Shown here: piece after piece, positions 44,198 through 46,307 of the stretch | Layout of the letters: each line of letters opens with the position of its first letter | Numbering within the stretch: the first letter of the stretch is position 1 | DNA from: Escherichia phage ManiMatter_Bas94 | Direction: 5' to 3' (one strand) | DNA: 64,000 bases | Sequence record: PQ850617.1 | Made by a program: the position numbers and the translations under genes | Notes under the pieces: model-generated | What the model was told of the DNA's origin: nothing | Seen by the model: only the letters and a program-made list of their open reading frames with translations | Database searches by the model: none

Positions 44198-46228
44198 TTA
44201 ACCTCTATTCAATGAACATTTAGGAGAATTACAATAAACTTGATTCATAGAACCAAGCGTACAACTTTCAGCATCGCGCCACGGAATCTGCTTAAAACAC
44301 CCTGAGCAGTAGCCGAGGGTTGACCACATTGCTTTGGTGAAGTCAGTGCTTCGGTTTCCGTCGAAGCTGACAACAGTTTTGCGGAGAGCTGTTCGTGATT
44401 CAGGAAACACACCTGCTTTCTCAGCAGGTTCCTCCTTTTTTGGCTTAGTTGAGATTGCAAAAATACTGTTGCTACGTTTCTCAACATAAGCATCAACAAC
44501 ATCCTCCAGAGTAATGCCTGTCTGTTTCGCTGAGGAAGGTAATACAGTCATACGACCAATCATATCTTCAGTTACACGTAAAGCAAATTCAGGACGACGG
44601 GCGTTTGTTGTATCTGTTGCTTTAATCCAGACATAACCATCTTTGATCGTAGCATTAGATACTTTCTTCTTTATATCTACAGCGCAGACTTTACAGATAT
44701 CTTCACCACGAAGACGACTGAGTTCATCATCAAACTCGTTCTCTGTTTTAACTTCACCACAGATTTCACAAACACCAATAGGAGTTTCCTCCTCTTCTTC
44801 ATCTTTAGGCTTAGTCAAACCTTCCAGACATTCAGGGTGCCAGTAGCATTGATATGCGAAGACTGCTTTAGGTGCATCCTTCCAATCAATGTGTTTATCA
44901 CAACCGCCACAATCACCATGAGAATGTGCTTCCCAGAATTTACGAGTGATAGTAACGCCATTCTTGTTGACGAAACTATCATTCATATCAAAAGGGATAT
45001 CATCATCAAAGTCAGCAGTAGTTGACTCAGGCTCCTTTTTCTCCAGAGATGGGTCAACAAAACGACCTGCTGTGATCACTAAACGAACCATAGCATTAAC
45101 TTCGGAGATACAGGATACTGTCCCACGGTAAACAATTTTAGGGTCTTTCAGGGCATCCTGATAAGCCTTAATGTCTACGTTATGAACATCACCTTCGATA
45201 TACTCTTGAGATTTCTCATCGTAGATATAACCAATCATCTTACCACGAGAAGGAACAGCACCAGCAGTTGCATAAGGGACAAACTCATGTGGTGTGATCT
45301 CCACAGTCATGTCGCGGCGAATGTCAATGTTTCGATCGCTTGCGATTTTGTTTTGACTTACCACTGCGTTTCTTCGACGAACGTCTGCCGCTGTCACTCC
45401 CGGCTTCGTGTCGTAAGGATTGCTTGTACTGCTTTTTGAGGAACTTTGATAGTTGCTTTGGCTGTAGTTGTTCGAGTAGTAATTGCCCCAACGATTGATT
45501 ACCGTAAAAACCGGAAGCTCGTGGGCGACCTCTTCAACTAGAGTCATGCTGTTGTTTGACACATCAAAGATGTATTCTGTACCAACTTTACATTCAAAGT
45601 GCTCATCAATGCGATTCTTGTGAGACCTAGAACGCTTCAGAATCCACATCAACATATCTTCTTCAGAAGCACCAAACCAATCTCTGTTACAACGTGCAAG
45701 ATGGAAAGGACGCTCTTCATTACGGATGATATGAAGACGATTATCAGAAGCATCATGCCAGATTAAGGTGAAAGCACCATCCAGCTTTTGAATAGTCTCT
45801 GCTGCACCAATAGTGTTAATAGAGTGGCAGATGTTTTCACTGTCTACCTCGAAGTTTTTACTGTCAGGTAACAGGTCTTGGTTCATCAAGGTTCCGTTAT
45901 GAACCAGAGTGATGTTACCGTGTTGGAAAGGATGGGCGTTCTTGGCGTTAACTGCACCTTTCGTTGCATGACGGCTGTGACCAACAATCCATGAAGGTGC
46001 TACAGTGTAAGCTGTTTCACCAGTGGTGTGCTTCTTGTACTCATCTTGAAGGATGAATGCGAAAGAAGGAAGTGCCTCTTTATAAGTGAAGACTTCTTTA
46101 GTGCTTTTACGCTGACCAAAGATACCAGAGGAGTGCTGTCCTCGGAATACTCCAGCATAAAAGAGTTGGTTAAATATATCTAAATCAGTGCTTGACAGAT
46201 TACCGCCAGCTAATACGATGCCACAAAT
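44198..46228 (-). CDS. Class-II (Ntn) glutamine amidotransferase fused to a long Cys-cluster C-terminal region; ATT start
   Basis: The listed ORF (start 45889) lacks 113 in-frame codons: (ATT)CGIVLAGG...GQHSSGIF..HSRHATKG..NAHPF..HNGTL is a GATase-II N-terminus with the nucleophile Cys at position 2. A stop codon (TAG) lies two codons upstream, and AGGTGG lies 8 nt before ATT. The C-terminus carries three CxxC-type clusters. Confidence 0.65.
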   Translation of the reverse strand: MCGIVLAGGNLSSTDLDIFNQLFYAGVFRGQHSSGIFGQRKSTKEVFTYKEALPSFAFILQDEYKKHTTGETAYTVAPSWIVGHSRHATKGAVNAKNAHPFQHGNITLVHNGTLMNQDLLPDSKNFEVDSENICHSINTIGAAETIQKLDGAFTLIWHDASDNRLHIIRNEERPFHLARCNRDWFGASEEDMLMWILKRSRSHKNRIDEHFECKVGTEYIFDVSNNSMTLVEEVAHELPVFTVINRWGNYYSNNYSQSNYQSSSKSSTSNPYDTKPGVTAADVRRRNAVVSQNKIASDRNIDIRRDMTVEITPHEFVPYATAGAVPSRGKMIGYIYDEKSQEYIEGDVHNVDIKAYQDALKDPKIVYRGTVSCISEVNAMVRLVITAGRFVDPSLEKKEPESTTADFDDDIPFDMNDSFVNKNGVTITRKFWEAHSHGDCGGCDKHIDWKDAPKAVFAYQCYWHPECLEGLTKPKDEEEEETPIGVCEICGEVKTENEFDDELSRLRGEDICKVCAVDIKKKVSNATIKDGYVWIKATDTTNARRPEFALRVTEDMIGRMTVLPSSAKQTGITLEDVVDAYVEKRSNSIFAISTKPKKEEPAEKAGVFPESRTALRKTVVSFDGNRSTDFTKAMWSTLGYCSGCFKQIPWRDAESCTLGSMNQVYCNSPKCSLNRG

Positions 46229-46307
46229 TTTCTAATCCACCTGAAGGGTAAACCCTTTCATCTAATTAACCTTTAAATTGTGCCCCTTCGTCAGAGGCAC
46301 CCATTGA

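What the first reader, a model, noticed from the sequence alone, without database searches (positions are those of the whole stretch)
46223..46234. The glutamine amidotransferase gene must initiate at ATT
The ORF track starts this gene at Met 45889. The reading frame continues 113 codons upstream and encodes a complete Ntn-type GATase N-terminus (CGIVLAGG.., GQHSSGIF, HSRHATKG, HNGTL).

The catalytic Cys must be residue 1 after Met removal. The sequence reads TAG AAA ATT TGT GGC, so the only codon that can precede the Cys is ATT (46228-46226). AGGTGG lies 8 nt upstream.

ATT initiation is rare and is typically autoregulatory or low-level, as in infC and pcnB. That would throttle expression of this enzyme.
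Basis: partly seen in the sequence, partly recalled or inferred. Interest (0 to 1): 0.5.

Follow-up and report, generated by a model that had tools for sequence, protein, structure and literature searches.

The report
ATT start codon of phage amidotransferase
A phage glutamine-amidotransferase gene really does begin at the rare start codon ATT; public annotation of the type phage has recorded this since 2008, most later genome records miss it, and distant relatives of the enzyme in other phages show the same ATT/ATC start.

Summary
On the minus strand the frame reads TAG(46234-32) AAA ATT(46228-26) TGT(46225-23), with AGGTGG 8 nt upstream of ATT. The 113 codons upstream of the mechanical ORF start encode the start of a class-II (Ntn) glutaminase domain.

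The window is a Kuravirus, 99.9% identical to phage LAMP. Sequencing error is excluded: all 96 phage records hit by a probe centred on the T of ATT keep it, as do six metagenomic contigs. The N-terminal codons are under purifying selection (dN/dS 0.12). The family profile aligns this Cys to Cys1 of GlmS. More distant homologues have ATG at exactly this codon.

The ATT start is not new. phiEco32 phi32_83 (2008), LAMP gp83 and the BASEL phages annotate it, but 41 of 53 annotated records checked truncate the gene.

The wider pattern looks new, as far as I could search. Of 118 distinct family sequences found by DNA-level search, 12 use ATT and 2 use ATC. These have stronger Shine-Dalgarno sites than ATG members. 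They usually also have a hairpin abutting the Shine-Dalgarno site.

That ATT throttles expression is a reasonable inference but untested. No protein-level data exist.

The parts
44198..46228 (-). Full glutamine amidotransferase CDS (676 codons plus stop), from ATT to TAA. Equivalent to phiEco32 phi32_83 and LAMP gp83.
   Evidence: 2031-nt CDS annotated at the identical position in three records. PHROG 4736 matches from residue 2.
46226..46228 (-). ATT initiation codon
   Evidence: It is the only near-cognate codon between the in-frame TAG and Cys. It is invariant in 96 of 96 records. The homologous codon is ATG in distant relatives.
46223..46225 (-). TGT, the catalytic N-terminal nucleophile Cys (residue 1 after Met removal)
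   Evidence: aligns to Cys1 of GlmS and PurF. (first beta-strand starts at this residue). (a synonymous TGC variant in L183 with ATT kept).
46232..46234 (-). In-frame TAG that closes the frame two codons upstream of ATT
46237..46242 (-). Shine-Dalgarno AGGTGG, 8 nt upstream of ATT
   Evidence: duplex with the 16S 3' end, -7.2 kcal/mol
46244..46257 (-). Hairpin AAGGG-TTTA-CCCTT, one base upstream of the Shine-Dalgarno site
   Evidence: Relative L193 has AAGGGA-TTTA-TCCCTT, i.e. one extra A-T pair and the same loop.
46232..46261 (-). In-frame mini-ORF ATG AAA GGG TTT ACC CTT CAG GTG GAT TAG (MKGFTLQVD*), ending 3 nt before ATT. Its significance is doubtful.
   Evidence: The ATG is CTG in L193, and L019 has no start codon there.
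46226..46276 (-). 51-nt leader that is invariant across Kuravirus and Suseptimavirus lineages
   Evidence: no substitutions versus L006 and L007, although the adjacent coding sequence differs at 25-30% of sites (dS about 1.2).
46280..46300 (-). Hairpin GUGCCUCU-GACGA-AGGGGCAC just after the amidoligase stop codon
   Evidence: The stem is kept through paired changes in L007 (GCGC.../...GCGC).
45500..46225 (-). Ntn (class-II) glutaminase domain, about 242 residues
   Evidence: Invariant R28, G29, H83, R85, N110, G111 and D128.
45887..45889 (-). TTG where the mechanical ORF list, and many GenBank records, start the gene. It lies inside the conserved HNGTL motif.
46308..47411 (-). Upstream amidoligase gene (Amidoligase_2), the likely partner enzyme

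Best explanation
Proposed mechanism. The 676-residue amidotransferase is translated from AUU at 46228-46226. The Shine-Dalgarno site AGGUGG, 8 nt upstream, positions a 30S subunit. fMet-tRNA decodes the near-cognate AUU. Deformylase and methionine aminopeptidase then remove Met, because Cys is a permissive second residue, and this exposes Cys1 as the N-terminal nucleophile of a class-II glutaminase.

Expected consequence. IF3 discriminates against AUU, so the yield per mRNA should be several-fold to about 100-fold lower than with AUG, and it should depend on IF3 activity. The weak codon appears to be retained by selection, partly offset by a good Shine-Dalgarno site placed just after a hairpin.

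Shown versus inferred. Shown: the gene structure, conservation of the ATT, homology of the Cys, and absence of any other start. Inferred: use of fMet, Met removal, reduced yield, and any regulatory purpose.
For: Local sequence
- Only AAA and ATT lie between the in-frame TAG and the Cys codon.
- The Cys aligns with Cys1 of mature GlmS and PurF. The model is confident and has the Ntn glutaminase fold. Catalytic Arg, Asn-Gly and Asp positions are invariant.

Conservation
- Codons 2-113 have dN/dS 0.12, with changes concentrated at third positions.
- The T of ATT is present in all 96 phage records that match a probe in which every 28-mer seed spans that base. It is also present in six metagenome contigs, one with a synonymous TGT to TGC change next to it.
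- Relatives at 33-66% identity have ATG at exactly this codon.

Independent lineages with the same arrangement
- L017/L059, L019, L020, L054, L072, L098 and L193 have ATT, and L081 and L094 have ATC. None has an in-frame canonical start between the upstream stop and the Cys.

Signs that these are real initiation sites
- ATT/ATC leaders have stronger Shine-Dalgarno pairing than ATG leaders (-9.4 versus -7.6 kcal/mol, p 0.004).

Supporting points
- The phiEco32, LAMP and BASEL annotators reached the same start.
- The protein was detected by mass spectrometry in the relative SU10.
- Published reporter data: AUU gives 1-2% of AUG, or 4- to 8-fold less than AUG.
Against: - There is no N-terminal protein sequence, ribosome-profiling or reporter data for this gene. 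The SU10 proteomics searched a truncated 63.8-kDa model, so it says nothing about the N-terminus.
- The good Shine-Dalgarno site and adjacent hairpin may compensate, so net expression need not be low.
- The p-values treat related sequences as independent.
- ATT retention within Kuravirus could partly reflect the invariant 51-nt leader being constrained for another reason.
Confidence: 0.87

Rival explanations
1. Sequencing or assembly error: the codon is really ATG.
For: None found. It is only the general prior that ATT starts are very rare.
Against: ATT is present in 96 of 96 independently sequenced phage records, in IMG/VR contigs and in six metagenome contigs.
Confidence: 0.005
2. The glutaminase N-terminus is a dead remnant. 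Only the 563-residue product from TTG 45889 or ATG 45886 is made, as many GenBank records annotate.
For: 41 of 53 annotated records listed have no CDS over the ATT. Paul and SU7 start downstream.
Against: - dN/dS is 0.12 over codons 2-113 at saturated dS.
- All catalytic residues and the fold are intact.
- The TTG/ATG lies inside the invariant HNGTL motif.
- In Suseptimavirus the 10 codons upstream of the annotated ATG are conserved as CGIVLAGGN.
- The truncated annotations are explained by gene callers that do not allow ATT.
Confidence: 0.03
3. Translation starts upstream at the mini-ORF ATG 46261. The TAG is read through, and a 12-residue propeptide is removed autocatalytically, as in Bacillus subtilis PurF.
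For: The mini-ORF is in frame with the gene and has a weak AAAGG 8 nt upstream of its ATG. Propeptide-processed Ntn amidotransferases exist (established knowledge).
Against: - It requires efficient TAG readthrough, and no suppressor tRNA is found in the 64-kb window.
- The mini-ORF start is CTG in L193 and absent in L019. L193 has TAG TAA immediately before ATT.
- The Shine-Dalgarno site is placed for ATT, not for the upstream ATG.
Confidence: 0.02
4. The start is at ATT, but mainly by termination-reinitiation. Ribosomes finishing the mini-ORF at TAG restart 3 nt downstream, the same geometry as thrS-infC (UAA GGU AUU).
For: The stop, 3-nt gap and AUU geometry is the same as at infC. There, reinitiation and de novo initiation contribute about equally, and yield is twice that of a stand-alone AUU. 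In L017 the upstream amidoligase stop codon lies in the spacer 4 nt before ATT.
Against: - The mini-ORF is not conserved outside Kuravirus and Suseptimavirus.
- Most ATT lineages have no upstream long ORF ending near the start.
- ATG lineages are the ones typically overlapped as TAATG.
Confidence: 0.12
5. The start is at ATT, but the weak codon is effectively neutral. The enzyme is needed in small amounts, so there is no selection for or against ATG and no regulatory role.
For: 76% of family members use ATG, and TTG and GTG also occur, so start-codon identity is flexible in this family.
Against: - ATT to ATG is a single step, yet it is never seen in 96 genomes from two genera with dS above 1.
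- ATT/ATC co-occurs with stronger Shine-Dalgarno sites and an adjacent hairpin, which suggests a tuned module.
Confidence: 0.2

Closest known systems
E. coli infC (IF3) AUU start
   Same: AUU is used as the initiator with a Shine-Dalgarno site. A stop codon lies 3 nt upstream (UAA GGU AUU versus UAG AAA AUU here). Yield is reduced relative to AUG.
   Different: infC is autoregulated because its product, IF3, is the factor that discriminates against AUU. The phage enzyme has no such feedback. The upstream ORF here is a 9-codon mini-ORF of doubtful significance, not thrS.
E. coli pcnB (poly(A) polymerase) AUU start
   Same: An inefficient AUU limits the level of an enzyme that is harmful in excess. 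It is one of only two confirmed non-canonical starts in E. coli.
   Different: It is a host gene. [quoted passage not shown]
Enterococcus faecalis ebpA ATT start (PMC4447247)
   Same: The gene was annotated from a downstream ATG, although the true start is an upstream ATT that attenuates expression (abstract).
   Different: ebpA was shown experimentally and is a pilus protein. Here the evidence is comparative only, but the N-terminal Cys requirement fixes the start to one codon.
GlmS / PurF / AsnB class-II (Ntn) glutamine amidotransferases
   Same: The fold, the catalytic Cys1 exposed by Met removal, and the Arg, Asn-Gly and Asp residues.
   Different: Those enzymes start Met-Cys in the solved sequences. 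Their synthase domains are fused. Here the C-terminal part of about 430 residues is a Cys-rich region of unknown function, and the likely partners (amidoligase, ATP-grasp) are separate genes.
Bacillus subtilis PurF propeptide processing
   Same: It is an alternative way to expose Cys1 in an Ntn amidotransferase (established knowledge).
   Different: It needs an in-frame start upstream of the Cys. Here a TAG two codons upstream rules that out.
Phage T4 gene 26 internal AUU initiation (from my own knowledge: Nivinskas et al. 1992; not checked here)
   Same: AUU used as an initiator in a coliphage gene.
   Different: That case is an internal start giving a second, shorter product. Here ATT is the only start of the full-length enzyme.

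Membership tests
Class-II (Ntn) glutamine amidotransferase | Catalytic Cys is the first residue after the initiator Met | tested here: met
   ATT-TGT. The profile aligns the Cys to residue 1 of mature GlmS and PurF. Most homologues begin MCG.
Class-II (Ntn) glutamine amidotransferase | Ntn four-layer alpha-beta-beta-alpha glutaminase fold | tested here: met
   AlphaFold pLDDT 94.9. Foldseek hits to GlmS, PurF and AsnB glutaminase domains at E about 1e-14, TM 0.66-0.71.
Class-II (Ntn) glutamine amidotransferase | Conserved glutamine-binding and oxyanion residues (Arg, Asn-Gly, Asp) | tested here: met
   R28, H83, R85, N110, G111 and D128 are invariant in 29-37 family sequences. They align with the HTRWATHG and HNG motifs of GlmS.
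Class-II (Ntn) glutamine amidotransferase | Glutaminase activity coupled to a synthase | not testable with these tools
   Only the gene neighbourhood is available: amidoligase upstream and an ATP-grasp enzyme downstream.
AUU-initiated genes (infC / pcnB type) | No canonical in-frame start between the upstream stop and the conserved coding sequence | tested here: met
   TAG AAA ATT TGT
AUU-initiated genes (infC / pcnB type) | Shine-Dalgarno site at functional spacing from the AUU | tested here: met
   AGGTGG with an 8-nt spacer. Other ATT/ATC lineages have GGAGG(A) at 7-8 nt.
AUU-initiated genes (infC / pcnB type) | AUU conserved in orthologues | tested here: met
   96 of 96 phage records and six metagenome contigs
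AUU-initiated genes (infC / pcnB type) | Protein N-terminus mapped to that codon | not testable with these tools
   No N-terminal data were found. The SU10 proteomics used a truncated model.
AUU-initiated genes (infC / pcnB type) | Expression limited by IF3 discrimination, rising with ATG substitution | not testable with these tools
   Inferred only
Propeptide-processed Ntn amidotransferases (B. subtilis PurF type) | In-frame canonical start upstream of the Cys, encoding a propeptide | tested here: not met
   A TAG lies two codons upstream. L193 has TAG TAA directly before ATT.
Termination-reinitiation coupled cistrons | A translated upstream ORF terminating within a few nt of the start, conserved in relatives | tested here: inconclusive
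   The mini-ORF ends 3 nt before ATT in Kuravirus but is not conserved in L193 or L019. L017 is coupled to the amidoligase stop. Most ATT lineages are not coupled.

The most novel reading that the evidence does not exclude
A hairpin, then a strong Shine-Dalgarno site, then a 7-8 nt spacer, then AUU or AUC forms a selected translational control module for phage Ntn amidotransferases.

It is kept or re-evolved in at least ten diverged lineages: 14 of 118 distinct family sequences, against two confirmed AUU genes in all of E. coli. Possible purposes are to hold a potentially wasteful glutaminase at a low level, or to make it depend on IF3 and host physiological state.

Because the catalytic Cys pins the start to one codon, this family would be a natural reporter for non-canonical initiation in phages. 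Standard gene callers systematically hide such starts.
Probability: 0.35. Interest if true: 0.6.

Novelty: already known. Interest (0 to 1): 0.35.

Why it matters
- Annotation. Most public Kuravirus and Suseptimavirus genomes annotate a product that lacks the catalytic Cys and up to 113 residues of the glutaminase domain. Anyone cloning or modelling from those records would get an inactive fragment.
- Biology. The family offers an unusually clean set of natural AUU/AUC starts, because the start is fixed by enzyme chemistry. It also shows co-varying Shine-Dalgarno strength and leader structure. This could be used to study how phages tune or condition translation through IF3-sensitive codons.
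- Limits. The function of the amidotransferase, amidoligase and ATP-grasp cluster itself is still unknown. A citing paper reports a proposed role in cell-wall modification.

Tried and rejected
- Sequencing error: rejected.
- Phage-encoded amber suppressor: no tRNA gene in the window.
- Known RNA family in the leader: only two chance-level Rfam hits far below gathering score.
- Sigma-70 promoter or intrinsic terminator in the leader: none on the minus strand near the start.
- Leader as a repeated phage promoter motif: the 22-mer is unique in the window.
- Global leader fold: not more stable than shuffles (z = -1.0).
- General translational coupling as the reason for ATT: not supported. ATG members are the ones overlapped with the upstream stop as TAATG, while most ATT members sit after an intergenic gap.
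- Mini-ORF as a conserved element: not supported outside Kuravirus and Suseptimavirus.
- Single origin of ATT: ATT/ATC members are scattered in a neighbour-joining tree. Deep nodes at 35-40% identity are unreliable. The shared GGAGGAT(A/T)AG leaders suggest some common ancestry, so the number of origins is unresolved.
- Literature: the phiEco32 genome paper and Iyer et al. 2009 are not held. Searches found no paper discussing this ATT start.
A single-protein query and a smaller alignment were used instead.
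Full report
**What is there.**
The window is a phiEco32-like podovirus (Kuravirus). The 2.3 kb around the finding is 99.9% identical to Escherichia phage LAMP and 96-97% identical to about 65 other E. coli and Shigella phages.

On the minus strand the sequence reads CAGGTGGAT TAG AAA ATT TGT GGC ATC GTA.
- TAG is at 46234-46232, ATT at 46228-46226 and the Cys codon TGT at 46225-46223.
- AGGTGG is at 46242-46237, which leaves an 8-nt spacer before ATT.
- The mechanical ORF list begins the gene at TTG 45889, which is 113 codons downstream and in frame.
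- Translation from the Cys gives CGIVLAGG...GQHSSGIF...HSRHATKG...HNGTL.

All coordinates and motifs in the finding are correct. The only slip is that the 'Met' at 45889 is a TTG.

**Is the N-terminal region a real, translated glutaminase domain?**
- Pfam finds GATase_6 (E 3e-15) and GATase_7.
- An AlphaFold model of residues Cys1-242 is confident (pLDDT 94.9), and its first strand begins at the Cys.
- Foldseek matches the model to the glutaminase domains of GlmS, PurF and asparagine synthetase (E about 1e-14, TM 0.66-0.71).
- A profile of 37 family members aligns to GlmS and PurF with the Cys opposite residue 1 of the mature enzymes (E 1e-24 to 3e-23).
- The Arg, His-x-Arg, Asn-Gly and Asp positions are invariant.
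- Between the window and two diverged lineages, KBNP1711-type (L006) and ECBP2-type (L007), codons 2-113 differ at 83 and 101 of 336 sites. Of those changes, 53 and 64 are at third positions, and dN/dS is 0.12 at dS about 1.2.

So this part is under purifying selection in this frame. It is not a decayed remnant.

**Where can translation start?**
Only AAA and ATT lie between the in-frame TAG and the Cys. A class-II amidotransferase needs the Cys as its free N-terminus.

Sequencing error is excluded. I used a 55-nt probe in which every possible 28-mer seed spans the T of ATT. It hit 96 phage records, so all 96 keep that T. Six Kuravirus-like contigs from independent metagenome assemblies also have ATT. 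One of them carries a synonymous TGT to TGC change right next to it.

Relatives at 33-66% protein identity have ATG at exactly the homologous codon. No tRNA gene, and therefore no amber suppressor, is present in the window.

**The annotation already has it.**
phiEco32 phi32_83 (GenBank EU330206, 2008), its RefSeq copy, LAMP gp83 and the BASEL phages Bas86-93 annotate a 2031-nt CDS that begins at this ATT.

Among the 60 records listed:
- 10 have a CDS over the ATT;
- 41 have none;
- 2 have only a ribosome-binding-site feature;
- 7 carry no annotation.

Phage Paul starts at the ATG after the TTG. SU7 starts at an ATG at codon 11. Both cut off the catalytic Cys.

I found no paper that discusses the ATT. 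The phiEco32 genome paper is not held.

**The family-wide pattern.**
Several distant homologues returned by the protein search looked N-terminally truncated. Reading their DNA showed ATT directly before TGT, a strong Shine-Dalgarno site 7-8 nt upstream, and an in-frame stop a few codons further up.

I then searched IMG/VR at the DNA level with family alignments, which is independent of gene calling. Pooling the two scans gives 118 distinct sequences:

| Codon before the Cys | Count |
|---|---|
| ATG | 90 |
| ATT | 12 |
| TTG | 8 |
| GTG | 5 |
| ATC | 2 |
| could not be read | 1 |

In Kuravirus, L017/L059, L019, L020, L054, L072, L098 and L193 (ATT), and in L081 and L094 (ATC), there is no canonical in-frame start between the upstream stop and the Cys. 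In L193 the frame reads TAG TAA ATT TGC.

For comparison, only infC and pcnB are confirmed AUU starts in E. coli.

ATT/ATC members are scattered in a neighbour-joining tree. Deep nodes are unreliable, and several leaders share GGAGGAT(A/T)AG, so the number of independent origins is open.

**Features that travel with the weak codon.**
- ATT/ATC leaders pair more strongly with the 16S 3' end than ATG leaders. The means are -9.4 and -7.6 kcal/mol for 10 and 90 distinct leaders (Mann-Whitney p 0.004).
- Nine of 12 ATT/ATC leaders have a hairpin whose 3' end lies 12-26 nt upstream of the start, usually directly abutting the Shine-Dalgarno site. Only 17 of 89 ATG leaders do (Fisher p 2e-4). L072 also has such a hairpin, but my filter missed it.
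- In the window this hairpin is AAGGG-TTTA-CCCTT (46257-46244). L193 has the same loop with one extra A-T pair.
- ATG members are typically overlapped with the upstream gene's stop as TAATG. Most ATT members follow an intergenic gap.

These statistics treat related sequences as independent and should be read as indicative only.

**Local leader.**
The 51 nt upstream of the Cys codon (46276-46226) show no substitution in L006 or L007, although the adjacent coding sequence differs at 25-30% of sites.

This block contains a 9-codon mini-ORF (ATG 46261 to TAG 46232) that is in frame with the gene and ends 3 nt before ATT. That is the same stop, 3-nt gap and AUU geometry as thrS-infC. At that junction, reinitiation and de novo initiation contribute about equally. 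However, the mini-ORF start is CTG in L193 and absent in L019. I therefore treat reinitiation as a possible local contribution, not as the explanation.

A second hairpin (46300-46280) follows the amidoligase stop codon and keeps its stem through paired changes.

**Mechanism and confidence.**
Initiation at AUU with subsequent Met removal is, in my judgement, about 90% likely.

Lower yield follows from published reporter data. AUU gives 1-2% of AUG. In another system it is 6-8 fold lower than AUG in a typical context, and 4-fold lower in the infC context. Enterococcus ebpA is a direct precedent: an ATT start that was mis-annotated from a downstream ATG and that attenuates expression.

Two observations suggest that the weak codon is selected. 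No ATG variant occurs in 96 genomes, even though ATG works in most of the family. And the weak codon co-occurs with a strong Shine-Dalgarno site and a hairpin. This remains unproven.

The protein is made at detectable levels in the relative SU10 (9 peptides). That search used the truncated model, so it does not bear on the N-terminus.

**Verdict.**
For this locus it is already known from public annotation. The added value is twofold: most records mis-annotate the gene, and ATT/ATC starts with a characteristic leader recur across this phage enzyme family.

Noticed in passing
L017 1400-1452; L019 1380-1428; L054, L072, L088, L098 around 1150-1203; L193 170-231: ATT/ATC-start relatives share a leader design. 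A 5-7 bp hairpin ends directly at a strong Shine-Dalgarno site (often GGAGGAT(A/T)AG), followed by a 7-8 nt spacer and then ATT-TGT. The hairpin sequences differ between lineages, but their position does not.
   Followed up: partly
window 46226-46276 (- strand): The 51-nt leader is invariant across Kuravirus and Suseptimavirus lineages whose adjacent coding sequence has dS above 1. The Shine-Dalgarno site and hairpin alone do not obviously explain this degree of conservation.
   Followed up: partly
window 46232-46261 (- strand): A 9-codon mini-ORF (MKGFTLQVD*) is in frame with the amidotransferase and ends 3 nt before ATT, the same geometry as the thrS-infC junction. It is not conserved in the more distant ATT lineages L193 and L019.
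   Followed up: partly
window 46280-46300 (- strand): A hairpin GUGCCUCU-GACGA-AGGGGCAC lies just after the amidoligase stop codon. Its stem is kept by paired changes in L007. No U-tract follows, so it does not look like a standard intrinsic terminator.
   Followed up: partly
window 46222-46226 (- strand): Canonical start codons overlap the ATT-TGT junction out of frame. TTG at 46226-46224 would give MWHRISWR*, and GTG at 46224-46222 would give MASY*. Either could compete with the ATT for initiating ribosomes.
   Followed up: no
GenBank records of related phages (table); L003 2015; L015 2556: Annotation is inconsistent. 41 of 53 annotated records checked have no CDS over the ATT. Paul starts at an ATG inside the HNGTL motif and SU7 at an ATG at codon 11. 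Both remove the catalytic Cys.
   Followed up: yes
window 44198-45500 (- strand), protein residues about 250-676: The C-terminal two-thirds of the protein has no Pfam domain and contains several CxxC pairs. A terminal CxxC...CxxC pair recurs in most homologues of about 400 residues.
   Followed up: no
L122, L123, L130-L132, L137, L144, L152, L155, L156, L158, L160, L169 (start at about 1198-1200): One part of the family uses TTG or GTG directly before the Cys codon (13 of 118 distinct sequences). Start-codon choice is unusually variable in this enzyme family.
   Followed up: partly
L019 (contig ERR12320422_20400, 45,838 bp): The ATT-start paralogue P0030 and an ATG-start homologue P0010 are both reported from a 45,838-bp contig. 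One phage may therefore carry two amidotransferases with different start codons. I did not verify that they are on the same contig.
   Followed up: no
L191-L194 (Herbiconiux daphne assembly, scaffolds under 1 kb): Four short scaffolds in an actinobacterial genome assembly encode 48-64% identical relatives of this coliphage-type enzyme, with TTG, GTG and ATT starts on the three scaffolds that include the start. They look like phage contamination of the assembly.
   Followed up: no
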